Positions 30,413 to 44,360 of a stretch of 55,140 bases of DNA are shown piece after piece. This DNA is from a virus (lineage: Duplodnaviria; Caudoviricetes), in the IMG/VR virus record IMGVR_UViG_3300032281_000128, positions 1-55,140 of that record, one strand, 5' to 3'. Under the pieces are notes generated by a model that saw only the letters and a program-made list of their open reading frames with translations, searched no databases and was not told where the DNA came from. Made by a program: the position numbers and the translations under genes. Positions within the stretch are counted from its first letter, which is position 1. Every line of letters starts with the position of its first letter.

Positions 30413-30413
30413 A

Positions 30414-31917: not shown

Positions 31918-31930
31918 AAATATCTCCAGT

Positions 31931-31963: not shown

Positions 31964-31970
31964 AATCATC

Positions 31971-32456
31971 TTAGTCCCAAGGGTTAGAACCAGATGACGC
32001 TGCGGGCTTTTCAGCCGGAGCAGCTTTACTTTCTTTCGGAGACGCTGAGGGAGATGGCACGTCACCGAAAAGAAACTGCTTGATAGTGTTACTATCTTTG
32101 TAACCACCAGTACCCTTCTGGATGCCGACGATTGCGTTGAACCGCTTGTCGAGGAGCTTGTCAGTGTCGTTAGCGTCAGGCTTACCACAAGCCGTTGCCC
32201 AAGCTACGAGCTGTTGGCGACCAATACGCTGAGCAGCCTCGCTCTTATTGACGATGTTAAAGTTCATCCAAACCCAACGACCGTCGTGCTTACCACCAAT
32301 GACCTCAAACTTAGCGACAATCATCTCACCGCCGGTAGAAGTCTCTTTCTCTTCGGCGTCAATCGCCTTCATAGTATACTCACCTTCCGGCAGCAACTCG
32401 TACGACGGACCGTCATTAACGTCGACTTCCGACGTGTCAAAACCAAACTTAGCCAT
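31971..32456 (-). CDS. Single-stranded DNA-binding protein (DUF669-like)
   Basis: LLPEGEY...GRWVWMNFNI...C-terminal NPWD; adjacent to Sak4. Confidence 0.75.
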   Translation of the reverse strand: MAKFGFDTSEVDVNDGPSYELLPEGEYTMKAIDAEEKETSTGGEMIVAKFEVIGGKHDGRWVWMNFNIVNKSEAAQRIGRQQLVAWATACGKPDANDTDKLLDKRFNAIVGIQKGTGGYKDSNTIKQFLFGDVPSPSASPKESKAAPAEKPAASSGSNPWD

Positions 32457-32467
32457 ATTATTTCTCC

Positions 32468-33208
32468 TTACTTAGCGATGGGAATGAGTTTTTCGAGATT
32501 CTCTATAGTCATCTCGATTTCTTCTGGGCAGCTGTAGCGGTTTTTAGCCGCGTATGCTGGGTTCTCAACAAAGTGAAGCAGACGCTCACCCGTAGTAACA
32601 CCACGAGTCTTGTCCTTATTGAAGCCAGCATCAGACTTCTTGATGATGACCTTAAACGCAGCGAACGCAAGCACATCAGCCCACTCTTGCAGCAATGCGT
32701 TACAGCGGTTAGGCAGCTTGGGCTGATAGCGGTCATACGGTTCAGTGCGAGGGTCTTCAAACTTGACCACAGCAGCGTGAGCGATAAGGATAACGTTCAT
32801 ACCACGCTTGGTACGCAGCACGTCCAAACCCTGCAAGATCTCACGGAACTCTTCCGCGACCATCATCTGACCTTTACCATACGCCAAGTCCTTAGCGTCG
32901 TGGTTTGCTTCAACATTACCGACGATCAACGGCTCTACCAACCAGTCAACAGAGTCAATGACTACGGTCTTGAAGTCGTGATCTTCTTTGATCAACGTTT
33001 TAATGCTACCCACAACGTCGTTGAGGTGCATTGCGCGGGGGAAGCTAGTTACGTCAAGCGAGTCCAGACCATCTTCAGTACTGATGAAAATAGGGTTAGG
33101 GAACTTACTCGCAAGCGTTGACTTGCCGATACCGTGCCCACCATAAATGACGAGCCGAGGTGGAACCTCCTGCTTACCGCGACGCAATGTATTTTGCCAA
33201 TCTGACAT
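32468..33208 (-). CDS. Sak4-like AAA ATPase (single-strand annealing recombinase)
   Basis: YGGHGIGKST, TEDG, VIDSVDW, YGKG, ILIAH and AKNR motifs. Confidence 0.85.
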   Translation of the reverse strand: MSDWQNTLRRGKQEVPPRLVIYGGHGIGKSTLASKFPNPIFISTEDGLDSLDVTSFPRAMHLNDVVGSIKTLIKEDHDFKTVVIDSVDWLVEPLIVGNVEANHDAKDLAYGKGQMMVAEEFREILQGLDVLRTKRGMNVILIAHAAVVKFEDPRTEPYDRYQPKLPNRCNALLQEWADVLAFAAFKVIIKKSDAGFNKDKTRGVTTGERLLHFVENPAYAAKNRYSCPEEIEMTIENLEKLIPIAK

Positions 33209-33228
33209 TATATTTCCTTTCTAAGTTA

Positions 33229-33579
33229 TCAATCTTCATAATCAACACTGTCAAACAATTCCATTTGACCGAAGTCCCACCTCTGCGGTGCGTACTGGAA
33301 GCTATCACGATCCCAGCTTAGAATGTTGACCACTTCTTCTTGCTCACTGACTACAGACATGCAGACAGCGCACAATGCCGGATCACCGATCATCAAAAGG
33401 TGATCTCCGGGTTTCCAATCAGACAACACGCGTCGAGCACGGGAAAGCATACTGCCCGTGTCATACGGCCTACGCGGTCGACTGAACACAGCTTGTAGTG
33501 ACCCGTAACGCTTGGCGTCTGACAAGTCTTTGGTGTTGTCGACTTGAACAACGAACACCGTGTTATCTTCATTTTCCAT
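33229..33579 (-). CDS. Conserved phage hypothetical protein (alpha/beta)
   Basis: DLSDAKRYG...DHLLMIGDPAL...LSWDR. Confidence 0.65.
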   Translation of the reverse strand: MENEDNTVFVVQVDNTKDLSDAKRYGSLQAVFSRPRRPYDTGSMLSRARRVLSDWKPGDHLLMIGDPALCAVCMSVVSEQEEVVNILSWDRDSFQYAPQRWDFGQMELFDSVDYED

Positions 33580-35407
33580 TTTTACTCTTCCTTGTTTTCT
33601 TTGGCGGTGGGGCTATTAATGCTAACTCCTCCTCAGTTAAATATTTTGAACAACCCACAGATACCGCAATCTTAATAGCCTCTTTACGATACCAGTCATA
33701 GTCTAAATCCGGCGGATGTTTCACTTTATCGGGTAGTGTCATGCATGCACGAGCACCATCCGTCTTGGGAACCTTGTTTCCGTTCTTGACGTAAAGGATA
33801 GGTTCAAGCGCAGAGTCGTTTGACTGATACCACCTTACAACCTTACCCAGATACTCACCCATCTGCTGCCCACCACCCGTCACGTTACGGGCAGAGATGA
33901 AATCACAGAACGGAGCGGCGCTGATAGTCTGCTGGAAGGGAACACCATTAGCTAACCACTGACCCACCGCATCGGCACAAACCTGAGCTGTCGGGTTCTT
34001 ACGTAACGACAGCGGTGAGTATATACCTTTAGCCTTCAACTTGCGGTCAGGCTTGATCGCCATGTAGTTATTGACATCCTTCATAGCTAACACCCGATAA
34101 GGGGTGAACTCAAACACGAACCGCGAAACCTCGCTGAACTTGCTAACAACCTTCTGAACAGTCTCCTCAAGGCTCTTAGGATACTTTATCGCTATACCGT
34201 CGGTGTTGGCACTAAGCGTCACAGCCCCAGCTCGCTCAAGCCACTCTATGAGCATGAGAAGCGTAAACTGCCCGGTCAGTGTCACCGCCAACATAAGGTC
34301 AGGTGAGTAGAGGACAGAATACTTGCTCGCCAACTTACCGAATGTACCATTGAGCGAGATCTTGAGGGTAGCGTCAGTGATCTTATCTCCGCTACGCTTT
34401 GCCTCAAGGCGTCGTTCATAGATCTTTCGATACTCTTCAACAAACTGCAACCCAAGAGCTTGGGGGACGAACCCGCACTCAAGGATGATGCTTGGGTAGA
34501 AGCTGGCTGCGTCAATGTCGCAGATGACTTCGTCCCCGGCGGTGTGGCAAACCTTCTTGTCATGCGTACTGTGGATACCTCCAACACCTAACTGATATTC
34601 ACCAGTACCGAACTTAACAGTCTGAGCACCTAAAAAGTCAGGCAACACTACGTGACCCGTATACGGGTTCATACTGAACGTATGGTTACGAACACGGTCA
34701 AGTAAGCCTTGTAGGTCAGCATCCATGAACTTGAGGAAGCTGGGCGCATCATACCTGACCGTCTGCGGGATAATGTTATCCTTACGCTTGAGACCCATGC
34801 TACTGATGTATGCCTGTTCAGCCATCTGAGAGTCTGACTTGCTGCGCATGTCAACTCCGTAACGACGGCTCATTTCAACCCGCAGCAACAACTCGCCTTC
34901 TAGCTGATTAAGAAGTTCTTCAGTTGTGTCTACGTCGTTGTGGCAATACTCCAGTAGCATGGGCTCTTGCTCGACTGAAATAACAGCGTCATGAGCGATG
35001 GGCATATCCTGCAGCTTCGGCATGTGCATGCGTGCGCCGTAGGCTTTAAGCCCAACGAATGACGGTGTCACCTCAATCAAATCAATATGGTCAGGTATCA
35101 CCTGATTGAGCCGATACTTCTTCATAGCGGCCCAAGGTGACAGTCGATTATCAATCAAGTCATTAGCGATGCGCTTGATCTCAGCTTCCGTACGACCAGC
35201 GCAGAAAGCTGACACCACTAAAGCGTCAAAGTAATTGCTGTTGAAGCCTACGAACGTAGTATCCCCTTGCGTTATAAAACGCTTGAGCTTACCCGCAGCG
35301 TCGTCTTCATGACGCCACAAGTCGAACCATTCGCCGGTGTCTACGTTTTTAGCGCAGAACAACGTGCGATTTGGCATCGTTTCAGTATCGTAAACCCAAG
35401 TTGACAT
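33569..35407 (-). CDS. DNA polymerase, family B-like, with 3'-5' exonuclease
   Basis: Exo motifs YDTE, GFNSNYFD, YCHND; Pol motifs DAASFYPS, KISLNGTFGK, NTDG. Confidence 0.9.
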   Translation of the reverse strand: MSTWVYDTETMPNRTLFCAKNVDTGEWFDLWRHEDDAAGKLKRFITQGDTTFVGFNSNYFDALVVSAFCAGRTEAEIKRIANDLIDNRLSPWAAMKKYRLNQVIPDHIDLIEVTPSFVGLKAYGARMHMPKLQDMPIAHDAVISVEQEPMLLEYCHNDVDTTEELLNQLEGELLLRVEMSRRYGVDMRSKSDSQMAEQAYISSMGLKRKDNIIPQTVRYDAPSFLKFMDADLQGLLDRVRNHTFSMNPYTGHVVLPDFLGAQTVKFGTGEYQLGVGGIHSTHDKKVCHTAGDEVICDIDAASFYPSIILECGFVPQALGLQFVEEYRKIYERRLEAKRSGDKITDATLKISLNGTFGKLASKYSVLYSPDLMLAVTLTGQFTLLMLIEWLERAGAVTLSANTDGIAIKYPKSLEETVQKVVSKFSEVSRFVFEFTPYRVLAMKDVNNYMAIKPDRKLKAKGIYSPLSLRKNPTAQVCADAVGQWLANGVPFQQTISAAPFCDFISARNVTGGGQQMGEYLGKVVRWYQSNDSALEPILYVKNGNKVPKTDGARACMTLPDKVKHPPDLDYDWYRKEAIKIAVSVGCSKYLTEEELALIAPPPKKTRKSKNGK

Positions 35408-35676
35408 TACGTGTTAACCGCGTATCCTGTAAAACTCGCACTCTTAGGAACCTCAAGGTATTGACCTTGAGCAGACTCAAGCTCTATAAGCTTATCAAGG
35501 AAGTGCTTGGCCTTCTCAAGATCTTGAAGACCGTTCTTCTCGTGGTAACGCTCAACATACTTAGTGATGCAACCTACAAAGTAACCACGACCATAGAGCC
35601 GCCACTGACGGTCCCAATGTTCCTCGCCACCTTTCTTGTAGTGGTCACCACCAATCTGACGGTCATTAGCGCTCAT
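35407..35676 (-). CDS. DUF3310 (SaV-like) protein
   Basis: QIGGDHYK...KYVERYHEKNGLQDLEKAKHFL. Confidence 0.8.
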   Translation of the reverse strand: MSANDRQIGGDHYKKGGEEHWDRQWRLYGRGYFVGCITKYVERYHEKNGLQDLEKAKHFLDKLIELESAQGQYLEVPKSASFTGYAVNT

Positions 35677-36160
35677 TTGCGATCTCCCTGATAGCGTTGA
35701 AAAGATGTTCTTCACGACCTTCAAGACCTTTTTCCGAAGCATAAATAATATACCGCGTAAAAACCGGGATGAGGCGTTTGTTACCTAATTGAATTTCACG
35801 AGCGCAGAATAACGCACCCTGAGCAATGTCAGCGAGCTTGAGTATACGTGCTTCTTCATCAGTGAGTTTCGGATTCTCAATACCGGCGTCTTCAATTATA
35901 GCTAGTTCAAGTTTATCAAGATGCTTACCTAAGCCGGACTGACGTTTAGTCGGTGAAGGTATATCACCCACAACCTGCTCTGCTAAGTCATGATACAACG
36001 CAGCTTTAAGCAGAGAAGCGGAAGCGTCAGGCTTCATCATGAGAACCATCATAGCAACACCGTGCGAATGGTGTCCCACAGTCTCGTTGTTGAAGGTGAA
36101 CACCGTATGGTAGCGAATTACCTCGGCACCAGTGGCTATAAATTGTATAGTGTCTTTCAT
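35666..36160 (-). CDS. HD-domain deoxynucleotide phosphohydrolase (YfbR/DatZ fold)
   Basis: RYH...ETVGHHS...ALYHDLAE...GDIPSPTK...KLAD. Confidence 0.85.
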   Translation of the reverse strand: MKDTIQFIATGAEVIRYHTVFTFNNETVGHHSHGVAMMVLMMKPDASASLLKAALYHDLAEQVVGDIPSPTKRQSGLGKHLDKLELAIIEDAGIENPKLTDEEARILKLADIAQGALFCAREIQLGNKRLIPVFTRYIIYASEKGLEGREEHLFNAIREIANER

Positions 36161-36193
36161 AATTCAAATCTCCAGTTAGCAGTTATACCTGAT

Positions 36194-36222
36194 ACTATAG
36201 GCGTGTATTTTTGAACAGGCAA
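36194..36222 (-). promoter_or_regulatory. Sigma70-like promoter TTGCCT-N17-TATAGT for the HD/polymerase operon
   Basis: Intergenic; followed by the TAACTGGAG leader. Confidence 0.6.
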
Positions 36223-36230
36223 CCCCCATT

Positions 36231-37226
36231 TTAACCCCCGCGTTTCATTTTGTTGATCTCACGCTGCTCGACCCAGGTATTCGTAGCTACGCACCAATCT
36301 GCCGCAGCGATTTGAGCAACCCAGTCAAAACCATCGCTCAGCTTGTTACGACGTGAGTGTATCACGTTAGCCATAGGTACAGCGACCTCGTTAAAGAACG
36401 AATGGTGGTAGCTCAATGGGGTGAACGGGTTCTCACAGAACCGACAGCAATCGTACAAGAATGTCTCCCAGTCACCGTCTTCCATAATCGGGTAAGGTTC
36501 AACACCACGAGCACCATATTCATAACCGTCACTATAAGCCGGTGGGTTGGTCAGGTAATCACCCACATCGTACAAATCAGTATATAGGTGGAGATTGTGA
36601 CTGACTTGGCGATAGTGACCGAGCGGAGCACCCAGAGCACTGGCTACGAACTCCTGCAAGAAACTGAAATGCACCGCGTTAGCGCCGTAAGCACCCCACC
36701 AGATATCGTTGCTCCTGTTATAAACAGTCATGTTCAGCTTACCATGGCGCAAGTCAAAGATGATCTGCGTATTGCAAGCCTTGTCCTTGGTGTTCTTCTT
36801 TAGGTCAGCCGAGTCCCATATCTGCACCACGGCCTGACGACTAGACGGGTCAGCTTGCAGGGTCTTGATGACAGCGCGGATCTGATCAAAGCCGAAATGA
36901 TGCCGCCAGCGATACCCGTATGCCGCATTGAACGTAACACCATCATCACTAAAGTTCACCATGTTCTTGTTGAACTGAGTGAGGAAGGCGACGTCGTTAC
37001 GACCGGCCATCATCCAAATAGACTCCATCAAGTGGAACACAGGGTTGCAGTCACGCTTGCGATTGAACAGGACACGCTCATTAGGGTGGGTGTAAATAGT
37101 CGTCACCGGCTCAGGCATCACATACGCTGGGCCATTACGGGTCTGCTCAGGCTCAAGGTTCATAGCCTTCATATTCCAGAAGATGTCGCTAAATGCCTCA
37201 TTAACGTTGCGAACTTTAATTTCCAT
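36231..37226 (-). CDS. Thymidylate synthase homologue, probable dUMP hydroxymethylase
   Basis: TRNG, YGYRW, SRQAV, catalytic C (ACNT), RSNDIWWGAYGAN (Asn indicates dUMP specificity) and NLHLY; context of hypermodification genes. Confidence 0.85.
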   Translation of the reverse strand: MEIKVRNVNEAFSDIFWNMKAMNLEPEQTRNGPAYVMPEPVTTIYTHPNERVLFNRKRDCNPVFHLMESIWMMAGRNDVAFLTQFNKNMVNFSDDGVTFNAAYGYRWRHHFGFDQIRAVIKTLQADPSSRQAVVQIWDSADLKKNTKDKACNTQIIFDLRHGKLNMTVYNRSNDIWWGAYGANAVHFSFLQEFVASALGAPLGHYRQVSHNLHLYTDLYDVGDYLTNPPAYSDGYEYGARGVEPYPIMEDGDWETFLYDCCRFCENPFTPLSYHHSFFNEVAVPMANVIHSRRNKLSDGFDWVAQIAAADWCVATNTWVEQREINKMKRGG

Positions 37227-37229
37227 GTC

Positions 37230-38156
37230 TCAAAACTCCGTTTCTGGTATGTAGGTGCTCTTGGGTTTACCATCGCCCAAGACCGTTCGGCAATATTTGC
37301 TGTATTCACACATGATGTTTTGAACGTCATGTAGCGTCAGGGTGCAAATACCCAGCTCTTCGTAAATCGCATTATGTATATTGACAAGCTCAATATTGAA
37401 TTGCTCTTGCGTCCATCCTGCGGTTGGTGCACGCTCAAGCAGGTAATTCAAACCACGACTGCTGCCCGGCCCAATAGGTGCCCAAGAGAATATATCATGA
37501 GCATCACAAAGCTGCCCCTTAGAAGCATACGTCAAATCAGCTGCCACTTGCCCAGCCATGAACGTGCTTATACCGAAGCAGCGTGACATGACCGTAACAA
37601 ATTCAGCAATGCTCGTCAGGCGATCGGTTCGGGTGATCTCATACTGAATGTCCTCCCACTTTTCAATAGCCGCACCGATTATATGCGTAGCTATCGCCTG
37701 AGACTTGTTACCGCCGGGGTCCATCTTTGTAGGGTATACCATGTATGCACCTGAGTAAACCTTTTCTTGATTTTCTTTACAGGACTCAACCACCTGCACA
37801 AACAGCTCAGGGTCGAACTCAGTCGGGTGGCACGGTATAACGTAATTATCAATCAATGCGTGCAAGGTGGGTGGCCAGTTGATAAGCCGGGCGATTAGTA
37901 GTGTGAACCATAAGTCATCACGATCTTCGTAAGGGTCAATCAAGTTATTTACAAACCACTTGGATACGCGGTCATCAATCCGGTGAATGTTGGTGAATTT
38001 ATATTTATCAAGAACCGGGTCGTTTGTCCACGGACGCTGGTGACCATTTTCACGAGCCATGCGGATAGCTTCACGCTCCCAAACAAAATATAACAATCCC
38101 TCCATAGTGCAAACTGTTTCTGGTCGTGGTATGTTGAACGGACATTCATCAATCAT
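37230..38156 (-). CDS. 5-hmdU DNA kinase (aGPT-Pplase1 family)
   Basis: ERE..R...PWTNDPVLDKYKFTNIHRIDDRVS...ARLINW...GAYM...FMAGQVAADL...GPGSSRGL...QNIMCEYSKY. Confidence 0.85.
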   Translation of the reverse strand: MIDECPFNIPRPETVCTMEGLLYFVWEREAIRMARENGHQRPWTNDPVLDKYKFTNIHRIDDRVSKWFVNNLIDPYEDRDDLWFTLLIARLINWPPTLHALIDNYVIPCHPTEFDPELFVQVVESCKENQEKVYSGAYMVYPTKMDPGGNKSQAIATHIIGAAIEKWEDIQYEITRTDRLTSIAEFVTVMSRCFGISTFMAGQVAADLTYASKGQLCDAHDIFSWAPIGPGSSRGLNYLLERAPTAGWTQEQFNIELVNIHNAIYEELGICTLTLHDVQNIMCEYSKYCRTVLGDGKPKSTYIPETEF

Positions 38157-38734
38157 TTCTCAGCACTCCTTAAATAGTTTACCACCCCGGTAATGGGGTC
38201 TTGCCAATCAAGCCAACGTACTGCGTATCCACCGGCTTCGGTTAACAACTCATAACTGCGGTGACATTGGTCATAAGCCGACCGCATCGTCTTGTCAGGG
38301 TCAAACGGCTTGTCATTACCCGCAGCCTCACGGCGAGCTAAAACCCGTTCAAGACACACATCCCAAGGCGTATCAAGGAATGCGAATATCGCGCCATGCT
38401 CTTTGAGAATAGGAGCCACGTGACCTTTATCAGAGCTTTTGGACATCAGTAGACCTTCTACCAACACATGACCATGACCGACAGCTTTGACAACCCGCTC
38501 GGCAATCTCTTCTTGAGTGTTGATGCCGTCAGCACCACCACACGTGTTCTCGTAACTGCCGATGACGAACACCGGAATATTGATACCCCATGGTGAGGCG
38601 TCAACCTTGTATCCTGCAGGACGACCGGGCTTACCCCCGAGCGGCTCGTTAGACAACTTATCAAGGAAGCGACGGACAATCGTCGTCTTACCGCTTCCGT
38701 TACAACCGCGAATATTAACAATCTGTTTCTTCAT
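38153..38734 (-). CDS. P-loop nucleotide kinase of the thymine-modification cluster
   Basis: IRGCNGSGKTT, GSY...GGAD, LVEG and LDTP...CLERV..RR motifs. Confidence 0.8.
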   Translation of the reverse strand: MKKQIVNIRGCNGSGKTTIVRRFLDKLSNEPLGGKPGRPAGYKVDASPWGINIPVFVIGSYENTCGGADGINTQEEIAERVVKAVGHGHVLVEGLLMSKSSDKGHVAPILKEHGAIFAFLDTPWDVCLERVLARREAAGNDKPFDPDKTMRSAYDQCHRSYELLTEAGGYAVRWLDWQDPITGVVNYLRSAEK

Positions 38735-39732
38735 AGAAAATGCTCCGCACGATAAGGTTTACCGGTCTCAGGAAAGACCACTGCTCGTTCTTTAATCGTC
38801 ATGTTGTCCTTAGTCAACTCACAAAGCAACCAGTCAGGTAGATACTCCTTACGGATATCTTTGAAAGGTGCTGTGTGTTCGCGATGACCATGCTCGTCAG
38901 CCCAAAGGATACGCTCCCAAGCCATATCAGCATACACACCGGGATAGCGGCGAGCGTAGAAATGGTTCTTGAACGTGCAGAGGTTAGACTCCATGGTAAA
39001 GTTACCCGCGTATATCAAGCTCTTGTTGTTGACCTTGAAGCTACCGAGGAACGTTTCAGCCTTACCATTCAACCACGAGCACATCTTATCAAAGTTATCG
39101 TAGTTACCATCAAAGCCGTTATCAGCTCGCTTGTCCCACACCAGTGCGTCCTGCCCGGTGAGCAGGAGCATACCGTTGCGATGAGACTTACTACCTGACT
39201 TGTCACTGAACATAAGGTCATCACAGTCAGCGCCGAACCCATTCAGGTAGACATACTCAAGGTAGCTGAAGCAGGACAGTCGACCGAACGACACGTACTG
39301 CGACACTATCTTCCACAACTCTTGGTAGGTCTTACCGGTCAGCATCATTTCCTGCGTCCCGTGCTGCTCAACCAGCTCGGCATACTTCTTGATAGCTGCG
39401 ACGGTCTCCTTCTTTTGATAACGGCGGTCCGTATCAAACTGGAGCACATCCCAAGACTCATTGAACCACTCGTCAAACTTAACCAGTTGGGCACCCGCCG
39501 GGGGGCACATAGGTAGCTGCTCAAACATGATGAGCGACGTGATTGGGTTCTGCGTCATACCATTGAGGAAAGCGAACCACAACCGCTGCTCGTTGTCCCA
39601 CTTATACTTAGCTGCCAGCGACGGCATGTAAAGATAGACCAGACCCGGCATAACACCGTACATCAGGTTCATCTGATACAGCTTGCTGAAATACTCAAGC
39701 CTGTTTTCAGGGAGACGGAAGTCACGCATCAA
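38731..39732 (-). CDS. Amino acid:DNA transferase (aGPT-Pplase2 family)
   Basis: DFRLPENR...EQRLWFAFLNG.TQN...FDTDRRYQK...FGRLSCFSYLEY...SHRNG...ESNLCTFK...RYPGVY. Confidence 0.75.
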   Translation of the reverse strand: MMRDFRLPENRLEYFSKLYQMNLMYGVMPGLVYLYMPSLAAKYKWDNEQRLWFAFLNGMTQNPITSLIMFEQLPMCPPAGAQLVKFDEWFNESWDVLQFDTDRRYQKKETVAAIKKYAELVEQHGTQEMMLTGKTYQELWKIVSQYVSFGRLSCFSYLEYVYLNGFGADCDDLMFSDKSGSKSHRNGMLLLTGQDALVWDKRADNGFDGNYDNFDKMCSWLNGKAETFLGSFKVNNKSLIYAGNFTMESNLCTFKNHFYARRYPGVYADMAWERILWADEHGHREHTAPFKDIRKEYLPDWLLCELTKDNMTIKERAVVFPETGKPYRAEHFL

Positions 39733-40694
39733 TGTTCTCCGTAAGTGTAGAATGGTTCAATGACCTTGACGCTAGGAGCTGAACCAACAATCCAGAACCC
39801 AGTCTTGTTGTCGCAACTGATGTAATCGTTCTGCCTGAGCCAACGCCACATCTTCGCCTCGTAGGTCGGGTGGAAATTGATACCGTCAAAGCTCTCACCA
39901 GTGAAGTGGTCACTGTACTTGCTGAACCCGTTGTCGTGCAGAGAGTAGTGCTGCCATTCAAAGTCAAACTTGCTAGCGTCAACACCCATGTAACGCAACC
40001 GCTCATGCGTCCACTCAGCCTTGTCAGGTCCGATACCGATAGTGAAGATGCGCTTGATGTTGTGTGAGTCACGGCTCAACCCAAGCAAGATGCTCGTGAG
40101 TGAGTTACAAGAACCCGCAGGGATGATCAGCTCTTCAACGTCGTCCGGAATGTTCTTGGTCTGATTAGCACCGACCTCATGGAACTTACGCACATCTTCT
40201 GGGCTGTACTTGCTGATGGGGAGCGTGATACCATACTCAACAACGAGCGAGCTGTCCTGAGTTAGGTCGGCAACCTTACGTTGAATGATCGGGTTATACG
40301 GCCCGGTAGCATATTCAAACACTGCACCAAAGCCATGCGACACAGCTGGGTTAGGGTGCTTGAGCACGGTATGGGGTTTGCTGTATACGACCTGACGACA
40401 CTTGAGACCGTAGTGGGCACCCACAATCGCACTCATGCTCAGCTGAGGCGACTGGACACTAGCACCCGTAACGATGTGCGTCTTGTTACCACGGAACCTG
40501 TTCATGAACCAGATGAGCTGCCGCATCTTAGAGCCGTTAGGTCCGCTATAACCGAGCGGAGCGAAGTAGTCCTCCCGCTTGAACCAGATACCCTGATGGT
40601 TCTCCCAAGGGGTCAGGTCACCAAGGTGGTCTTCCCAGCGAACGTCAGCACGTTTCATTGACAATGTGGGGAAAATACTCTTACTCATGTTCAC
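39729..40694 (-). CDS. PLP-dependent enzyme (fold type II), probable DNA-linked amino acid decarboxylase
   Basis: LTPW...WFKREDYFAP...NGSKMRQ (PLP lysine), SPQ, IPAGSCNS, HPTYEAK; coupled to the transferase gene. Confidence 0.75.
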   Translation of the reverse strand: MNMSKSIFPTLSMKRADVRWEDHLGDLTPWENHQGIWFKREDYFAPLGYSGPNGSKMRQLIWFMNRFRGNKTHIVTGASVQSPQLSMSAIVGAHYGLKCRQVVYSKPHTVLKHPNPAVSHGFGAVFEYATGPYNPIIQRKVADLTQDSSLVVEYGITLPISKYSPEDVRKFHEVGANQTKNIPDDVEELIIPAGSCNSLTSILLGLSRDSHNIKRIFTIGIGPDKAEWTHERLRYMGVDASKFDFEWQHYSLHDNGFSKYSDHFTGESFDGINFHPTYEAKMWRWLRQNDYISCDNKTGFWIVGSAPSVKVIEPFYTYGEH

Positions 40695-41113
40695 ACCTCA
40701 GATACGTTAAGAAGCTGGAAGCTGATATCGTTGACAGTCACGACAATCTGCTCACCGCGTTTAGCGGCCTTATATAATTGAGCCGTGAGCCGGTCTTGCT
40801 GGCTACTCGTCATCCAATCAGGGTTCTCAACCCACATGGTGTGAGCATTCTTCCAAACTTGCTCGCTGTCAATGCGAATGATCTGGCGGTCCAGCTTGAG
40901 CGACGTCTTCATCAGGGGTCGCTCTTTGCCGGTAGGTTCAGGCTGTTCAACAGTTTCCACTTTGGGTTCCTTAAGTGTTGCGTACATTAGTTCAACACAA
41001 CGCTTCTCCGCCGTAGCACGGTCACGGAACTTCTTAACAGGTCTGTCAGTGTGCTCGTTATAGAATTTGACAAGCTGGCTGAGCGTCATGCTCGTAAAGT
41101 TTACTTCGGTCAT
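40691..41113 (-). CDS. Hypothetical protein leading the modification operon
   Basis: LVKFYNEH...PVKKFRDRATAEKR; GGAG SD. Confidence 0.65.
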   Translation of the reverse strand: MTEVNFTSMTLSQLVKFYNEHTDRPVKKFRDRATAEKRCVELMYATLKEPKVETVEQPEPTGKERPLMKTSLKLDRQIIRIDSEQVWKNAHTMWVENPDWMTSSQQDRLTAQLYKAAKRGEQIVVTVNDISFQLLNVSEV

Positions 41114-41138
41114 CGGTAATCTCCAAATGAAATCTGTA

Positions 41139-41873
41139 TTATGAATTGCGAACGTCCTGAATGATTGACCCTAAGTCACTAATACCACCATTGCAATGAC
41201 GCATGTTGGGGGTGTTACGATACTTAGCGTAAACTGAATGATTGATGAACTTGGTCATCATGATAGTCCATTCAGCTTCACAAGGAACGCGGCCCGCAGC
41301 ATCATCAACATCTAAGAACGTGAAGTCTATGTCTTGATACTTCTGCTTGATCACTGACATCTGTTGCCCCCTCAAGCCGATAATTGTAATACGCTTACGG
41401 CGAGGCTTAGTGGTCTGTGGCCACCCACCCGGCGCAGTTTGATTGACGATGATCGGCCGAGGATCCTGATGCGTCTTCTGCAGAGCAGAGAGCTGCTCAG
41501 AGATACCTGACATGACTTCTGTAGCCACACGCTTAGCCAACTGGTCAAACAGCTTCTCAAGCAACTCTGAGACGCCAAGCTCAACTGGTTGCGGAGCAAG
41601 TGCTTCAACCTTAGCGGCTAAAGCGGCCACAGTCAGCTTACGGTCACGAGCCCGACTATAAGACTCTGCTTTGGCTCTTTCCATCCAGTCCTTTAGGTTA
41701 GACAGCATCGCAGGGTAAACCTTACGGCGACGACCGATCGGGAGATCATACTGCGACTTGATTAATATGTTTTCTCTGCTGCTGGACCTACCCTCAGCAT
41801 ACACCTCAACCATGCGATTGAAAACTATGTTACGCTCTTCGTCAGTCCAGTGAATACGTGTTTTTGTAACCAT
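41139..41873 (-). CDS. Hypothetical protein with possible DUF2325-like C-terminal domain
   Basis: HWTDEER N-terminus; ITIIGL...IMMTKFINHS...GGISDL; TAACTGGAG leader. Confidence 0.6.
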   Translation of the reverse strand: MVTKTRIHWTDEERNIVFNRMVEVYAEGRSSSRENILIKSQYDLPIGRRRKVYPAMLSNLKDWMERAKAESYSRARDRKLTVAALAAKVEALAPQPVELGVSELLEKLFDQLAKRVATEVMSGISEQLSALQKTHQDPRPIIVNQTAPGGWPQTTKPRRKRITIIGLRGQQMSVIKQKYQDIDFTFLDVDDAAGRVPCEAEWTIMMTKFINHSVYAKYRNTPNMRHCNGGISDLGSIIQDVRNS

Positions 41874-41893
41874 GATCATTCTCCAGTTATCAG

Positions 41894-42064
41894 TTAAAAG
41901 TTCCAAGGTTTGGCGGCGTATTGGGCGGCTACATGGCGAGCGGCTATCTTACCGTCAACCCGGTGCTCAGCTATAATGTGACGGCGACCAGCCTCAAGCA
42001 CGCTAATTCTTAGGTAGCCATCTTGGCGTTTAGTAGGGGCGGTGTAATCAGCAATACGTTGCAT
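41894..42064 (-). CDS. Small early protein (56 aa, MQRIADYTAP...)
   Basis: TAACTGGAGAATTGAAATG leader; below ORF-track cutoff. Confidence 0.6.
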   Translation of the reverse strand: MQRIADYTAPTKRQDGYLRISVLEAGRRHIIAEHRVDGKIAARHVAAQYAAKPWNF

Positions 42065-42133
42065 TTCAATTCTCCAGTTATCAAGTTATCTGTGTATCTA
42101 TAGGGGTGTAATTCTGGTTTGAAAAGGGGAAAG

Positions 42134-42505
42134 TTACTTCCCCTTAGTAAAGTCACGAATGCGACACATAACCAACTCAGCAAGAGCCACAGCAGTGTCT
42201 AACGGAGCCGCTAAGATAGCATCCTCAAGCTCCATACGGTCTTGTATCTTCTGTGGTGATGAGCGTGTAACCTCAGATGGCTTGACAAAGACCGGCGTCC
42301 TGACTATCACGAAAGGTTCGTCATCTACCGGGCTATTTGCAGCCGGTGTAGCGCCGACCTTAAAACCATTCAGGAATGCGAGCAGACCTGCTTTGTCGTA
42401 AGGCACATCATACTGCTCGTAAGTGGTGTCGTGCACCTTAGCGATGGTGATTGCTTCGTCCTTAGTGCCAGCCCAATGACCGGTCGGTGTGCGATATAGC
42501 TTCAT
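42134..42505 (-). CDS. Early hypothetical protein
   Basis: MKLYRTPTGHWAGT...DVPYDKAGLLAFLN; GGAGG SD. Confidence 0.65.
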   Translation of the reverse strand: MKLYRTPTGHWAGTKDEAITIAKVHDTTYEQYDVPYDKAGLLAFLNGFKVGATPAANSPVDDEPFVIVRTPVFVKPSEVTRSSPQKIQDRMELEDAILAAPLDTAVALAELVMCRIRDFTKGK

Positions 42506-42506
42506 G

Positions 42507-42617
42507 TTACTTCCCTCCGTTCTTATTTTCGCCCCAGCACACAACAGCGCCGAGGATGAATATGCAGATCATTACGAATGCTTCGAATGGTAGATATGGT
42601 TCAAGGTCAAACAACAT
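42507..42617 (-). CDS. Small membrane peptide (36 aa)
   Basis: AAGGAGG SD; FVMICIFILGAVVC. Confidence 0.45.
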   Translation of the reverse strand: MLFDLEPYLPFEAFVMICIFILGAVVCWGENKNGGK

Positions 42618-42628
42618 TTCAAGCCTCC

Positions 42629-42859
42629 TTACTGAGCTGCGAATTCAGAGCTGGTGATGACTTCCTCAAGGTTGCAACATGCTTCCTCAAGCTGGTTGTA
42701 GGCTTCTTCAGTCTGCTGCCCACGTTCACTGTTCTGCAGGTTCTCAGGCATGTTTTCAAAAGTGTAACCCTCTTCATCACGAGCGGTCTCAAGTATGCTG
42801 AGAGCCTCTTGCAGTAGCCCGATAGCCTTGTTGATTTCTTTACGACGATCATTATTCAT
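42629..42859 (-). CDS. Acidic helical early protein
   Basis: MNNDRRKEI...DEE..FENMPENLQNSERG; conserved leader. Confidence 0.7.
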   Translation of the reverse strand: MNNDRRKEINKAIGLLQEALSILETARDEEGYTFENMPENLQNSERGQQTEEAYNQLEEACCNLEEVITSSEFAAQ

Positions 42860-42913
42860 TTCAGTTCTCCAGTTATAAGATTTGTGGGGGCCGAAACCCC
42901 CACCGGTTTAAGC

Positions 42914-43240
42914 TCAGATTTTGTTACCATGTGCTTGATAAGCGTCTGTGTCAAAAATCAGTTTGCTGATATCCTCACCCCTAAGGTCGCGGCACAACTG
43001 ACGCATACCATTTTGCGGTGGATAATTTCTTAGATCGCGTCGATACACATAACCCTTAACAGCCATGTCATTGCGAATTTCATCACTCAGTGTCATTTCA
43101 ATGTTATCCCAAAAAGATCTATAGCCGTCGACAAAATCGGCTGTGCGGTACGATGGAAAGGTGTGACGCTTAACGTTACTTTCAACCTTATCTCGCTCTG
43201 CGGCGGTCCAACCATTTAGAAATTCTTGTGTCTGTGTCAT
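42914..43240 (-). CDS. Early hypothetical protein
   Basis: Conserved 20-nt leader. Confidence 0.65.
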   Translation of the reverse strand: MTQTQEFLNGWTAAERDKVESNVKRHTFPSYRTADFVDGYRSFWDNIEMTLSDEIRNDMAVKGYVYRRDLRNYPPQNGMRQLCRDLRGEDISKLIFDTDAYQAHGNKI

Positions 43241-43261
43241 TTCAGTTCTCCAGTTATAAAA

Positions 43262-43558
43262 TTAACGGCTTAGGTTCTTTACACCACCGCGTGAGCCGAT
43301 TTGAACGTGGCGCTCAAGACGTCCGAAGATCGAGGCCATGGTGCCCTCGTCGTTTGGCAGACCGCTCTCGACATACAGCGTGACATGCTTACTGTTATCG
43401 AAACGCGTAACCGACAGCTTCTTGATTTCGTAGTCCAGAAAAGTTATCGAGCTAATCATACGGTCGGCTACACGGCGCTGGGCTGGGTTAAGATCGTCAA
43501 GCGAGATCTCAACAGTCAGTGCTTTGAATTCGGCGAGCAATTCGTCTAGGTCAGTCAT
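43262..43558 (-). CDS. Early hypothetical protein
   Basis: Leader plus promoter module; C-terminal QIGSRGGV. Confidence 0.65.
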   Translation of the reverse strand: MTDLDELLAEFKALTVEISLDDLNPAQRRVADRMISSITFLDYEIKKLSVTRFDNSKHVTLYVESGLPNDEGTMASIFGRLERHVQIGSRGGVKNLSR

Positions 43559-43651
43559 TTCAAGTCTCCAGTTATCAAGTTATGAAACCCTCTCTAGTTT
43601 CATTCCACGTGGAAGTAAAGTGAAAAAACGCTTGCACCCAAAAATAATTTC
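43556..43651 (-). promoter_or_regulatory. Promoter/leader module with palindrome TTCCACGTGGAA (inverted copy at 46480-46576)
   Basis: Aligns by eye with 46480-46576 in reverse complement. Confidence 0.6.
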
Positions 43652-43657
43652 GCCCAA

Positions 43658-44014
43658 CTAACGAACAGCTAGGATTCTCTTAGCTTCAAAGAACATGTTG
43701 GTACCCGGTGGAAGTGGGTCATCTAGCTCTCCGTACAACTTGTCCACCCTCTTGGCGATAACTCGCAGCACGACGAGGCGCACATCCGGTTCGCTATCCA
43801 ACAACCACCGCAGACCTGACAGCCGGGAGATGAAGTCACGCTCTGCTGCTGGGGGCATATCCTTGATGTAACGCAACATACGCATCATCTCGTCGGGACG
43901 GACACACTCGTCAACTGTGGACTTGAACCACTCTTTACGTTTGACCTTGTACCGTGCCAGCAGCCGGTCACTTTCTTCATAACGCTTCTTTTCAGCGTCG
44001 CTGATCTTCCTCAT
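43658..44014 (-). CDS. Hypothetical basic protein
   Basis: 118-aa ORF coupled to the upstream small ORF; LDDPLPP motif. Confidence 0.6.
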   Translation of the reverse strand: MRKISDAEKKRYEESDRLLARYKVKRKEWFKSTVDECVRPDEMMRMLRYIKDMPPAAERDFISRLSGLRWLLDSEPDVRLVVLRVIAKRVDKLYGELDDPLPPGTNMFFEAKRILAVR

Positions 44015-44160
44015 TTGCGTCTAGACCAGATTCGTATCAAGCGGTTCCAATTGATACGGAAGGGATAGCGGGACTGCTGCCAGTCGCGCAGAAGCTCTAC
44101 CTTACCTTCGGCAGTCGGCTCTTGTCTGAAAATGACGTAAAGGTCTTCAAGTCTATACAC
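44011..44160 (-). CDS. Small hypothetical protein (49 aa, GTG start)
   Basis: GGAG SD; ATGA overlap with the 44014 start. Confidence 0.45.
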   Translation of the reverse strand: MYRLEDLYVIFRQEPTAEGKVELLRDWQQSRYPFRINWNRLIRIWSRRK

Positions 44161-44205
44161 GGGGTTCTCCCAAGTTATCAGTTATTGCGAAATGATCGCT
44201 TACGC

Positions 44206-44294
44206 ATTCTGGGTCATTTCAATCCAGAAGGCAAGTGGGGTGGAAAAATATTTTTACGCGGGGGCTTGCCTTTTCAAAACAATAGCCCGATAAT
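44206..44294. promoter_or_regulatory. Divergent promoter pair: - strand TTGCCT-N17-CAGAAT (44234-44206); + strand TTGCCT-N17-GATAAT (44266-44294)
   Basis: At the strand switch; same TTGCCT -35 as other promoters. Confidence 0.55.
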
Positions 44295-44360
44295 GCCGAC
44301 CCACATAACGTATAACCGGAGACAGCTGATGCTGGCAAAAACCTATAAATCGGAGGAGTC

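What the first reader, a model, noticed from the sequence alone, without database searches (positions are those of the whole stretch)
36231..40694. Complete thymidine hypermodification operon in a podovirus-like phage, with a PLP enzyme but no radical SAM isomerase
Seen: five tightly coupled - strand genes encoding a PLP enzyme, an aGPT-Pplase2-like amino acid:DNA transferase, a P-loop kinase, an aGPT-Pplase1-like 5hmdU DNA kinase and a TS homologue with the dUMP-specifying Asn. No CxxxCxxC radical SAM, flavin lyase or acetyltransferase ORF was recognised. Established: such genes replace T with 5hmU and hypermodify it after replication. Phage ViI adds serine and decarboxylates it with a PLP enzyme (5-NeOmdU); M6 uses glycine, radical SAM and PLP (5-NedU); PaMx11 uses a flavin lyase and acetyltransferase. 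Those phages are myo- or siphoviruses. Inference: this 55-kb podovirus-like phage has hmU DNA with an amine-bearing modification. Gene content best fits the ViI route, but a different amino acid donor, and so a new base, is possible.
Basis: partly seen in the sequence, partly recalled or inferred. Interest (0 to 1): 0.85.

Follow-up and report, generated by a model that had tools for sequence, protein, structure and literature searches.

The report
ViI-type thymine hypermodification operon, uncultured phage
A complete 55-kb genome of an uncultured phage carries, in one tight operon, the known enzyme kit that replaces part of the thymine in phage DNA with an amino-acid-derived base. The kit is most like that of Salmonella phage ViI and is common in metagenomes, and only the chemical group added here is still open.

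Summary
Five translationally coupled minus-strand genes at 36231-40694 encode a fold-type II PLP enzyme, an ADDT/aGPT-Pplase2 transferase, a P-loop kinase, an aGPT-Pplase1 (HMUDK_hel) protein and a TS-family enzyme. An HD nucleotidase and a DUF3310 protein follow them, and a conserved 140-aa ORF precedes them.

This is the same enzyme set as in Salmonella phage ViI (5-NeOmdU), packed into one operon. The parts are mosaic:
- The kinase, Pplase1, TS and HD proteins are closest to Pseudomonas phages M6 and PaMx11 (31-44% identity).
- The PLP enzyme is closest to ViI gp226 (35%, Schiff-base lysine aligned).
- The transferase is only 25% identical to ViI gp247 and carries different residues at the known donor-specifying positions.

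No radical SAM, flavin, acetyltransferase, dUTPase or MazG gene was found in six frames.

The cassette is not rare. 351 IMG/VR stretches encode a transferase relative, and the 80 best (55-68% identity) keep the same gene order. This scan has already flagged look-alikes in 25 other genomes.

The best reading is hmU incorporation, then phosphorylation on DNA, then addition of a side-chain-linked amino acid, then PLP decarboxylation. Serine, giving 5-NeOmdU, is the likeliest donor (about 45%); a different donor and a new base has about 35%. It is a new member of a known kind, of moderate interest, with no chemical evidence so far.

The parts
39729..40694 (-). Fold-type II PLP enzyme, homologue of ViI gp226 (the O-SerT decarboxylase). 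The predicted Schiff-base lysine is K56.
   Evidence: 35% identity to ViI gp226 (E 5e-64; 1.1e-62 against the small reference set). K56 aligns with ViI K92, the residue named in PMC8989533 section 19. K56 is invariant in 28 of 28 aligned sequences. AF2 model pLDDT 91.0. Best PDB folds are D-cysteine desulfhydrase 4d9e (9.2e-11) and the ACC deaminase homologue 1j0a. No hit to M6 gp52, no Pfam hit, and no PDB sequence hit at E<=0.01.
38731..39732 (-). Amino acid:DNA transferase (ADDT / aGPT-Pplase2). Catalytic C252, with E248 and S249 at the positions of the metal ligands of the solved relatives. The likely start is the ATG at 39729.
   Evidence: PF18724 at 8.9e-18. 25% identity to ViI gp247 (E 7e-29), 38% to Montesquieu MONT_42 and 36% to Bane1 gp3. 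AF2 pLDDT 93.1. The only real PDB fold matches are PaMx11 gp46 entries 8z2n/8z2m (prob 1.00, TM 0.52-0.62, 12-13% identity). E248, S249 and C252 are invariant in 39 of 39 sequences. The tree places it with ViI and the actinophage transferases, apart from M6, PaMx11 and 15599, with 100/100 support.
38153..38734 (-). P-loop 5-hmdU DNA kinase (5-HMUDK) candidate. Walker A region G10-T18.
   Evidence: 32% identity to PaMx11 gp49 (2.7e-21), 31% to M6 gp54 (2.5e-11) and 22% to ViI gp67 (5.8e-4). phrog_800 at 2e-15. Pfam HMUDK_HMUD1 scores only 16.7 bits against a cut-off of 27. G10, G13, S14, G15 and K16 are invariant in 35 of 35 sequences.
37230..38156 (-). aGPT-Pplase1 / HMUDK_hel protein (HhH glycosylase-like). 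Its role in the pathway is not known.
   Evidence: PF18723 at 1e-42. 33% identity to M6 gp55, 27% to PaMx11 gp50 and 21% to ViI gp160 (E 2.4e-8). It lies directly after the kinase in 74 of 80 relatives.
36231..37226 (-). TS-family enzyme, read as a dUMP hydroxymethylase. Key residues: C151, R171, S172, D174, N183.
   Evidence: 44% identity to PaMx11 gp51, 42% to M6 gp58, 33% to ViI orf66 and 33% to the 15599 gene annotated deoxyuridylate hydroxymethyltransferase. The best PDB sequence match is the CMP 5-hydroxymethylase MilA 5b6d at 1.7e-23, against about 1e-12 for thymidylate synthases. It falls below all seven NCBIfam ThyA cut-offs, for example 74.9 against 174.55 bits. C151, N152, R171, S172, D174 and N183 are invariant in 39 of 39 relatives.
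35666..36160 (-). HD-domain YfbR-like 5'-deoxynucleotidase, a candidate enzyme for shaping the dNMP (dTMP) pool.
   Evidence: PF12917 at 9.3e-12. 34% identity to PaMx11 gp52 and M6 gp59, which hold the same place after the TS homologue in those phages. Present in 69 of 80 relatives.
35407..35742 (-). DUF3310 protein. PHROGs name the family 'nucleotide kinase'. It is a candidate hmdUMP kinase, which is a weak inference.
   Evidence: PF11753 at 7.7e-8. phrog_5839 at 3.2e-20 and phrog_236 'nucleotide kinase' at 7.3e-16. Present in 70 of 80 relatives.
40691..41113 (-). Conserved 140-aa ORF of unknown function. Its stop overlaps the start of the PLP gene.
   Evidence: GTGA overlap. Relatives occur in 60 of 80 loci (median identity 49%). 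In five of the nine loci printed they lie upstream of the PLP gene with gaps of about 230-370 nt, and in the PLP-less loci L040 and L077 just upstream of the ADDT. No Pfam hit; phrog_4730 (function unknown) at 4.2e-8. The Atlas search gave nothing.
33569..35407 (-). DNA polymerase, directly downstream. Context only.
   Evidence: phrog_1252 at 3.4e-161. The best cultured-phage match is 39% identical. Present in 63 of 80 relatives at a median identity of 75%.

Best explanation
This is a thymidine hypermodification operon of the kinase/ADDT kind, with the enzyme set of Salmonella phage ViI.

Proposed steps:
1. The TS-family enzyme makes 5-hydroxymethyl-dUMP from dUMP. The HD nucleotidase and perhaps the DUF3310 protein shape the nucleotide pool. 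The phage polymerase then puts hmU in place of part of the T.
2. On the DNA, the P-loop kinase phosphorylates the hydroxymethyl group to give 5-PmdU.
3. The ADDT displaces the phosphate with a free amino acid, joined through its side chain so that its alpha-amine stays free.
4. The gp226-like PLP enzyme decarboxylates the appended amino acid and leaves a primary-amine tether that blocks restriction enzymes.

Serine as donor, giving O-SerT and then 5-NeOmdU, is the single most likely chemistry (about 45%). Another side-chain-linked donor has about 35%. The role of the Pplase1 protein is unknown.

What is shown: the genes, their families, their coupling and their conservation. What is inferred: every catalytic step, taken from homologues characterised in ViI, M6 and PaMx11.
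For: Families and coupling.

The enzyme set equals the ViI set of kinase, Pplase1 (gp160), Pplase2 (gp247), PLP (gp226) and TS homologue (Table 3 of PMC5889632; Table 1 and sections 16 and 19 of PMC8989533).

PLP enzyme: 35% identical to ViI gp226, lysine aligned, fold type II, and no similarity to M6 gp52.

ADDT: it falls in the ViI-containing deep clade, separated with 100/100 support from the glycine and diamine enzymes. It keeps the E-S/T-x-L-C catalytic and metal motif. Its model matches only PaMx11 gp46 in the PDB.

TS homologue: closest to the TS homologues of phages M6 and PaMx11, whose DNA holds hmU-derived bases, and to the solved hydroxymethylase MilA. It has the uracil-type Asn and fails the ThyA equivalog cut-offs.

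No rSAM, FAD, acetyltransferase or CxxxCxxC was found in the complete genome, nor in 80 related loci (0 of 80).

Operon order is conserved across the 80 relatives: ADDT 80, kinase 76, Pplase1 74, TS 72, DUF3310 70, HD 69, PLP 62.

Relatives without the PLP gene keep the same ADDT pocket motif. Two complete relatives lack the PLP gene altogether. This fits a PLP step that acts after the transfer and is optional.
Against: There is no chemical or sequencing-signal evidence of any modified base; the public runs that hold the stretch are kept only as contigs.

The ADDT is only 25% identical to ViI gp247, which sits on a very long branch. It has no PDB sequence match at E<=1.

At the residue after the catalytic Cys, which PMC13458397 shows to help set the donor, the window has Thr. 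ViI has Trp, M6 and PaMx11 have Lys, and 15599 has Gly. Serine therefore cannot be carried over by homology.

The kinase misses the Pfam 5-hmdU kinase cut-off (16.7 against 27 bits). The PLP enzyme has no Pfam hit.

No dUTPase, dTTPase or MazG was found that would exclude T, so replacement may be partial or small.

The PLP gene is missing from 2 of 4 complete related genomes tested among the loci where it was not adjacent, so it is not essential to the system.
Confidence: 0.72

Rival explanations
1. The pathway logic is the same but the donor differs. The ADDT attaches a side-chain nucleophile other than serine, such as threonine, homoserine, cysteine, ornithine or lysine. After PLP decarboxylation this gives a thymine derivative not yet described.
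For: The ADDT is 25% identical to ViI gp247 and 36-38% identical to actinophage enzymes for which I found no reported chemistry. The residue after the catalytic Cys is Thr in the window and in 77 of 80 relatives, and Gln in the other 3. It is Trp in ViI, Lys in the glycine enzymes and Gly in the diamine enzyme. PMC13458397 (sections 33 and 38) shows that two pocket residues can switch the donor, and that enzymes 35% identical use different donors.
Against: The PLP enzyme is a clear gp226 homologue (35%), so a very similar substrate is the simplest expectation. Serine is abundant. The equivalence of pocket positions rests on a weak profile alignment (probability 0.19, E 0.32) anchored on one short motif.
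Confidence: 0.35
2. The PLP enzyme does not act on DNA. It makes or converts the free donor molecule that the ADDT then attaches, for example by decarboxylating or beta-replacing a free amino acid.
For: Most fold-type II PLP enzymes act on free amino acids, and the nearest solved folds are D-cysteine desulfhydrase and ACC deaminase. In phages PhiW-14 and 15599 the transferases use free amines (PMC13458397, abstract and section 33).
Against: The only characterised homologue, ViI gp226, acts on the DNA-bound conjugate (PMC8989533, section 19). Relatives that lack the PLP gene keep the same ADDT pocket motif. That is hard to explain if the PLP enzyme supplied the donor.
Confidence: 0.08
3. The cassette does not yield a hypermodified base in this phage. 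The TS homologue is a plain thymidylate synthase, or the DNA stops at hmU or 5-PmdU, or the genes serve another end such as nucleotide supply.
For: No dTTP- or dUTP-destroying enzyme was found. The kinase is below the Pfam family cut-off. No chemical data exist.
Against: All five genes are intact and translationally coupled. They are conserved in order in 62-80 of 80 relatives. Catalytic residues are invariant. The TS homologue fails all ThyA equivalog cut-offs and is closer to hydroxymethylases.
Confidence: 0.05

Closest known systems
Salmonella phage ViI (Ackermannviridae) 5-NeOmdU pathway: TS homologue orf66, 5-HMUDK gp67/gp243, aG/PT-PPlase1 gp160, serine:DNA transferase gp247, PLP decarboxylase gp226
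   Same: The five enzyme families are the same and there is no rSAM, flavin or acetyltransferase step. The PLP enzyme is 35% identical with the lysine aligned. The ADDT lies in the same deep clade.
   Different: In ViI the genes are scattered over a 157-kb myovirus genome and there are two kinases; here there is one operon and one kinase. The ADDT is only 25% identical, with Thr instead of Trp after the catalytic Cys. The kinase, Pplase1 and TS proteins are much closer to M6 and PaMx11 than to ViI (22%, 21% and 33% to ViI). ViI gp226 carries an insert of about 50 residues that is absent here.
Pseudomonas phages M6 (5-NedU, gp51-gp59) and PaMx11 (5-AcNmdU, gp46-gp52), Mesyanzhinovviridae
   Same: The order kinase, Pplase1, TS homologue, HD hydrolase is the same, and these four proteins are the closest cultured-phage relatives: 31-32%, 27-33%, 42-44% and 34% identity.
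   Different: Their ADDTs are glycine transferases with no BLAST similarity to the one here. M6 needs a radical SAM isomerase and has an unrelated-looking PLP enzyme (gp52). PaMx11 uses a flavin lyase and an acetyltransferase. None of these is present here.
Glutamicibacter phage Montesquieu (cultured actinophage; genes MONT_38-42, 51, 52), chemistry not reported
   Same: It holds an ADDT (38% identical), an adjacent PLP enzyme (32%), P-loop proteins, a Pplase1 and a TS/hydroxymethylase. The combination of ADDT and PLP without rSAM therefore already exists in a cultured phage.
   Different: The gene order and host phylum differ, and the TS homologue is a longer protein of 516 aa. The paper that describes the phage (PMC9331655) does not contain the words thymine, thymidine, hypermodif, pyrophosphorylase or restriction.
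Diamine:DNA transferases of Delftia phage PhiW-14 and Acinetobacter phage SH-Ab 15599 (alpha-putrescinylthymine, alpha-dapT)
   Same: They use the same kinase-then-transferase logic on hmU DNA and share the E-S/T-x-L-C motif (PMC13458397, sections 37 and 38).
   Different: They use free diamines and need no PLP step. They lie in the other deep clade of the tree. The pocket residues are Gly and Asp instead of Thr and Arg/Tyr.

Membership tests
Pfam PF18724 ADDT (aGPT-Pplase2) | Profile match above the gathering score | tested here: met
   65.3 bits against a cut-off of 26.2, E 8.9e-18. It was the only Pfam family at E<=0.01.
Pfam PF18724 ADDT (aGPT-Pplase2) | Catalytic cysteine with the preceding Glu and Ser/Thr metal ligands (15599 E222, T223 and the conserved Cys; PMC13458397, section 37) | tested here: met
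   E248, S249 and C252 align with the E-T-x-L-C of M6, PaMx11 and 15599 and are invariant in 39 of 39 clade members.
Pfam PF18724 ADDT (aGPT-Pplase2) | Fold of the solved 5-PmdU glycinyltransferase | tested here: met
   The AF2 model (pLDDT 93.1) matches only PaMx11 gp46 entries 8z2n/8z2m, with prob 1.00 and TM 0.52-0.62. The Foldseek E-value is only 0.03-0.08.
ViI-type serine:DNA transferase (gp247 orthologue) | Same donor-pocket residues as gp247, with serine as donor and an O-C linkage | tested here: not met
   The residue after the catalytic Cys is Thr here and Trp in gp247, and overall identity is 25%. The donor itself cannot be tested with these tools.
Pfam PF18723 HMUDK_hel (aGPT-Pplase1) | Profile match above the gathering score | tested here: met
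   146.9 bits against 25, covering profile positions 6-275 of 281. 33% identity to M6 gp55.
5-hmdU DNA kinase (5-HMUDK, P-loop) | Homology to experimentally shown kinases (M6 gp54, ViI gp67; PaMx11 gp49 is listed as one) and an intact Walker A motif | tested here: met
   BLASTP gives 2.7e-21 to PaMx11 gp49, 2.5e-11 to M6 gp54 and 5.8e-4 to ViI gp67. The G-x-x-G-S-G-K residues are invariant in 35 of 35 sequences.
5-hmdU DNA kinase (5-HMUDK, P-loop) | Pfam PF18748 HMUDK_HMUD1 above the gathering score | tested here: not met
   16.7 bits against 27, E 0.0052.
dUMP hydroxymethylase (TS superfamily) | TS fold with catalytic Cys, the Arg-Ser-x-Asp motif and the uracil-specifying Asn; grouping with the TS homologues of phages whose DNA holds hmU-derived bases rather than with ThyA | tested here: met
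   C151, R171, S172, D174 and N183 are invariant. 42-44% identity to M6 gp58 and PaMx11 gp51. The MilA hydroxymethylase scores 1.7e-23 against about 1e-12 for TS.
dUMP hydroxymethylase (TS superfamily) | Product is 5-hm-dUMP and not dTMP | not testable with these tools
   I know of no sequence rule that separates the two, and this rests on recall. An enzyme assay is needed.
Thymidylate synthase ThyA (NCBIfam equivalogs) | Score above the equivalog cut-off | tested here: not met
   The best is TIGR03283 at 74.9 bits against 174.55. All seven models fall far below their cut-offs.
gp226-type PLP-dependent decarboxylase of DNA-bound amino acids | Full-length homology to ViI gp226, the Schiff-base lysine and a fold-type II structure | tested here: met
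   35% identity over residues 5-313 (E 5e-64), with K56 aligned to K92. K56 is invariant in 28 of 28 sequences. The fold matches 4d9e and 1j0a.
gp226-type PLP-dependent decarboxylase of DNA-bound amino acids | Decarboxylase activity on the DNA conjugate | not testable with these tools
   It needs the assay of PMC8989533, section 19.
M6-type (rSAM) or PaMx11-type (flavin lyase plus acetyltransferase) tailoring | Presence of a radical SAM isomerase, or of an FAD lyase and an acetyltransferase | tested here: not met
   PF04055, PF01266 and PF00583 gave no match at E<=1 in six frames. M6 gp53, PaMx11 gp47 and gp48 hit 0 of 80 related loci.
Podovirus-type virion | Adaptor/nozzle tail genes, and no tape measure, sheath or tube | tested here: inconclusive
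   PF24175 SU10_adaptor scores 90 bits against a cut-off of 27 at 17628-18287, and a large protein carries a peptidase M15 domain. No tail-tube, sheath or tape-measure family appeared, but several large proteins had no hit at all. That SU10 is a podovirus is recalled.

The most novel reading that the evidence does not exclude
The transferase belongs to a large subclade whose chemistry I found reported nowhere. The subclade covers the 80 best-matching of 351 IMG/VR stretches that encode a transferase relative, plus more distant actinophage relatives. Its donor pocket (Thr after the catalytic Cys, then Arg-Arg-Tyr) matches no characterised enzyme. This widespread group of aquatic and gut phages may therefore attach a donor other than serine, glycine or a diamine, and carry a thymine derivative that has not been described. 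In that case natural PLP-plus and PLP-minus lineages would carry its decarboxylated and carboxylated forms.
Probability: 0.35. Interest if true: 0.7.

Novelty: new member of a known kind. Interest (0 to 1): 0.42.

Why it matters
Hypermodified thymines shield phage DNA from restriction enzymes, and the enzymes that make them are used as tools for labelling hmU. This operon adds no new enzyme class. It does show a compact, self-contained version of the ViI-type route: five coupled genes, plus pool enzymes, directly upstream of the polymerase gene. It sits in an abundant uncultured phage lineage with no cultured relative. The small size makes it a convenient cassette for reconstitution. Relatives with and without the PLP gene offer a ready comparison of the finished and unfinished base. 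The transferase clade has an unassigned donor pocket, so it is a reasonable place to look for a new donor. If the product is simply 5-NeOmdU, the result only extends that base beyond Ackermannviridae.

Tried and rejected
1. A megablast of the operon against 50,697 phage records found no match, so there is no close cultured relative. One large structural protein gave only 2 weak tblastn hits, so the lineage could not be named.

2. The kinase and Pplase1 might act as a two-subunit kinase, since they are fused in SP10 gp186 according to Table 3 of PMC5889632. Complex prediction returned no verdict (score 0.09, mark 0.32), which counts neither for nor against binding.

3. The Protein Atlas search for the 140-aa ORF gave no usable hit.

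4. The promoter and terminator scan of 30000-44500 found 16 promoter-like sites against 16.2 expected, and 8 terminator-like sites against 12.3 expected. It says nothing about operon limits.

5. PDB sequence searches with the ADDT (E<=1) and the PLP enzyme (E<=0.01) found nothing. Only fold comparison linked them to solved structures.

6. The profile-profile alignment of the ADDT clade with M6, PaMx11 and 15599 was weak (probability 0.19, E 0.32). The mapping of YuA Y257 to R262 or Y263 therefore stays ambiguous. Only the Cys+1 position is firm.

7. I looked for a modification signal in reads. All 20 listed runs are kept as contigs, not raw reads, so miscalls at T could not be examined. The differences seen are strain-like transitions. 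Bins without cover in X7, X9 and X19 mean nothing.

8. The Pfam scan at E<=0.01 lists only PF18724, and the tree puts the protein with ViI gp247. Rejected.

9. A PLP enzyme like M6 gp52 was rejected: no BLAST hit at 1e-2.

10. I found no paper on this phage group or on the chemistry of its transferase clade. Figure 2 and the supplements of PMC8989533, which list metagenomic contigs with such clusters, could not be seen. They may already show members of this group.

Full report
**What is there.** The window is a complete virus record of 55,140 bases with direct terminal repeats. On the minus strand, 36231-40694 holds five ORFs of 321, 333, 193, 308 and 331 aa. Their junctions are GTGA, TGATG, ATGA and ATGA overlaps plus a 3-nt spacer.

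Pfam, PHROGs and NCBIfam give these assignments:
- 38731-39732 is ADDT/aGPT-Pplase2 (PF18724, 65.3 bits against 26.2).
- 37230-38156 is HMUDK_hel/aGPT-Pplase1 (PF18723, 146.9 bits against 25).
- 36231-37226 is a TS-family protein (PF00303 at 1.5e-23; phrog_5131 at 2.8e-109).
- 38153-38734 is a P-loop protein (phrog_800 at 2e-15). The Pfam 5-hmdU kinase model reaches only 16.7 bits against 27.
- 39729-40694 has no Pfam hit. It matches phrog_3650 at 4.2e-83 and has weak ACC-deaminase-type NCBIfam hits.

Three conserved neighbours belong with these five. Directly downstream lie an HD YfbR-like 5'-deoxynucleotidase (35666-36160), a DUF3310 protein (35407-35742) and the DNA polymerase. Directly upstream, overlapping the start of the PLP gene, lies a 140-aa ORF of unknown function.

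**Comparison with the characterised systems.** I took the reference proteins from the public records of ViI, M6, PaMx11, SH-Ab 15599, Bane1 and Montesquieu and ran BLASTP.
- TS homologue: 44% identical to PaMx11 gp51, 42% to M6 gp58, 33% to ViI orf66.
- Pplase1: 33% to M6 gp55, 27% to PaMx11 gp50, 21% to ViI gp160 (E 2.4e-8).
- Kinase: 32% to PaMx11 gp49, 31% to M6 gp54, 22% to ViI gp67.
- HD protein: 34% to PaMx11 gp52 and M6 gp59.
- PLP enzyme: 35% to ViI gp226 (1.1e-62), 32% to Montesquieu MONT_41, and no hit to M6 gp52.
- ADDT: 38% to Montesquieu MONT_42, 36% to Bane1 gp3, 25% to ViI gp247, and no hit to the M6, PaMx11 or 15599 transferases.

Table 3 of PMC5889632 (passages read) lists ViI gp160 as aG/PT-PPlase1. 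The ViI set is therefore a TS homologue, kinases, Pplase1, Pplase2 and a PLP enzyme, which is exactly the set found here. The order kinase, Pplase1, TS, HD matches M6 and PaMx11. The operon is thus a mosaic: an M6/PaMx11-like front end joined to a transferase and PLP pair of the ViI and actinophage type.

**Individual proteins.**

*TS homologue.* It keeps C151, R171, S172, D174 and N183, all invariant in 39 of 39 relatives. N183 stands where the CMP hydroxymethylase MilA has Asp. MilA is the best PDB sequence match at 1.7e-23, against about 1e-12 for thymidylate synthases. All seven NCBIfam ThyA models fall far below their cut-offs. This fits a dUMP hydroxymethylase, but the product is not shown.

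*PLP enzyme.* K56 aligns with K92 of ViI gp226, the lysine proposed for the internal aldimine in PMC8989533 section 19. K56 is invariant in 28 of 28 sequences. The AF2 model (pLDDT 91.0) matches fold-type II enzymes. Among them is 1j0a, the template named for gp226 in that paper.

*ADDT.* The model (pLDDT 93.1) matches only PaMx11 gp46 in the PDB, with prob 1.00 and TM 0.52-0.62 at 12-13% identity. There is no PDB sequence match. E248, S249 and C252 align with the metal ligands and the catalytic Cys described for 15599 in PMC13458397 section 37.

**The donor question.** PMC13458397 (section 38) shows that 15599 G227 and D238, equivalent to YuA K248 and Y257, set the donor, and that changing both switches the enzyme from diamine to glycine. 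In my alignments the numbering checks out for 15599 and for M6.

At the Cys+1 position the window has T253. The 80 relatives have Thr in 77 and Gln in 3. ViI has Trp, M6 and PaMx11 have Lys, and 15599 has Gly. The second position maps to R262 or Y263. That mapping is weak, because hhalign gives only probability 0.19.

In a maximum-likelihood tree the window's clade, the actinophage pair and ViI gp247 form one deep group. It is split with 100/100 support from 15599, M6 and PaMx11. Relations inside the group are unresolved, and ViI sits on a very long branch.

The transferase is therefore of the ViI superclade, but serine cannot be inferred. A gp226-like enzyme needs a free alpha-amine (PMC8989533, section 19). 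This argues for an amino acid joined through its side chain.

**Absence of other tailoring steps.** Six-frame searches of the whole genome found no Radical_SAM, DAO, Acetyltransf_1, dUTPase or MazG at E<=1, while the control genomes rang. No CxxxCxxC motif exists in any frame of 80 aa or more. Pfam and PHROG scans of the other larger ORFs showed replication, recombination, packaging, lysis and virion genes only.

**How common it is.** In IMG/VR, 351 of 385 candidate stretches encode a relative of the ADDT. The 80 best, at 55-68% identity, were fetched; many come from contigs of 50-64 kb.
- With tblastn, all 80 have the ADDT, 76 the kinase, 74 Pplase1, 72 the TS homologue, 70 DUF3310, 69 HD and 62 the PLP enzyme. 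The order was the same in nearly every row. Some misses are loci cut by contig ends.
- None of the 80 has a match to M6 gp53, PaMx11 gp47 or gp48.
- Twelve loci with more than 1.5 kb of upstream sequence lack an adjacent PLP gene, and 6 are undetermined. The pocket motif is the same in both groups.
- I searched five such records whole. Two hold the PLP gene elsewhere, two complete records (60,781 and 57,497 bases) lack it, and one has a 29-residue remnant with a stop.
- Two loci, L086 and L087, join the same ADDT clade to a Tet_JBP dioxygenase instead of the kinase and TS genes. Some relatives carry a DHH/DHHA1 protein or a dCTP deaminase between the PLP gene and the ADDT.
- Contigs 90-99% alike to the operon occur in four runs of four studies. 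Their labels are insect gut metagenome (30 of 30 bins covered), no label, freshwater metagenome, and an aquatic metatranscriptome library (27 of 30 bins). DNA carry-over in the last cannot be excluded.
- No cultured phage is close. There is no megablast match, and the best protein identities are 36-46%.
- This scan has already noted look-alike transferases in 26 windows of 25 genomes, with the same cassette described repeatedly.

**Virion type.** A 219-aa protein matches the SU10 adaptor family at 90 bits against a cut-off of 27, and an 827-aa protein holds a peptidase M15 domain. No tape-measure, sheath or tube family was seen. 'Podovirus-like' is plausible but not proven.

**Literature.**
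- PMC8989533: I read the outline, section 14 part 1, sections 19 and 21, and passages. It establishes the kinase, transferase and tailoring steps, and reports combinatorial permutations of these genes in metaviromes. I could not see its Figure 2 or its supplements.
- PMC13458397: outline, sections 33, 37 and 38, and passages. It gives the pocket rules.
- PMC13229309: passages. PMC11955845: first of two parts of the text, the article body included. These describe the ParB/TET-JBP route that goes with the actinophage relatives.
- bioRxiv 10.64898/2026.05.19.726188: passages. It reports 5-NeOmdU again in an Ackermannviridae phage.
- In the searches I found no report of 5-NeOmdU outside that family, and no report on this phage group.
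- PMC9331655, on Montesquieu, has none of the five modification terms I searched for.
- For PMC11472151 I saw only the search listing.

**Verdict.** This is a new, compact and widespread member of the known kinase/ADDT thymidine hypermodification systems, with the ViI enzyme set. I put about 0.9 on its being such a system and about 0.72 on the full step order given. Serine and 5-NeOmdU have about 0.45, and a different donor with a new base about 0.35. Interest is moderate, because the kind is known and common. The open point is the identity of the donor, and a simple reconstitution would settle it.

Noticed in passing
L013-L092, kinase column: Identity of the relatives' kinases to the window's kinase falls into two groups, about 37-49% and about 70-85%. 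The flanking ADDT (55-68%) and Pplase1 (42-77%) show no such split. This suggests that two kinase alleles are exchanged within the lineage.
   Followed up: no
L086:4943-6244 and L087: The same ADDT clade (60% identical) sits next to a Tet_JBP dioxygenase (PF12851, 2.6e-21) with no kinase or TS hit in the locus. It lies beside RecA-like and DnaB-like genes. One transferase clade therefore serves both the pre-replicative hmU route and the T-dioxygenase route.
   Followed up: partly
L048:6054-6992, L059:4032-4853, L092:5445-5990: In some relatives a DHH/DHHA1 phosphoesterase-like gene (weak Pfam hits) or a dCTP deaminase (PF22769, 1.6e-36) is inserted between the PLP gene and the ADDT. These may be extra nucleotide-pool enzymes.
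   Followed up: partly
window 17628-18287, 9067-10047, 25122-27605: There is an SU10-adaptor family protein (90 bits), a second weak adaptor-like match (24.5 bits, below the cut-off), and an 827-aa protein with a peptidase M15 domain. Together they hint at a podovirus-type tail with a cell-wall-cutting ejection protein.
   Followed up: partly
L008 (Mycobacterium phage Bane1) 806-3483: Bane1 gp1-gp4 are annotated ParB-like, 'queuine tRNA-ribosyltransferase', hypothetical (this is the ADDT relative) and 'terminase small subunit'. The layout looks like the ParB/TET-JBP/ADDT/kinase set described for Rhodococcus phage Tonitrus (PMC11955845). Bane1 gp2 hit 3 of the 80 IMG/VR loci. The annotations may be wrong.
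   Followed up: no
window 40691-41113: This 140-aa ORF is translationally coupled to the PLP gene and has relatives in 60 of 80 loci, including upstream of the ADDT in loci without the PLP gene. It has no family assignment or Atlas hit and may be a sixth component or a regulator.
   Followed up: partly
window 53087-53659: This 190-aa ORF after the large terminase gene has a NUMOD3 motif (PF07460, 24.3 bits) and may be a homing-endonuclease-like gene.
   Followed up: no
window 35400-41200, runs X2, X7, X9, X19: Contigs 90-99% alike to the operon occur in four runs from four studies, including one RNA library. Differences are mostly transitions, and there is one 3-nt deletion at 38727, near the ADDT/kinase junction, in two of the runs.
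   Followed up: partly
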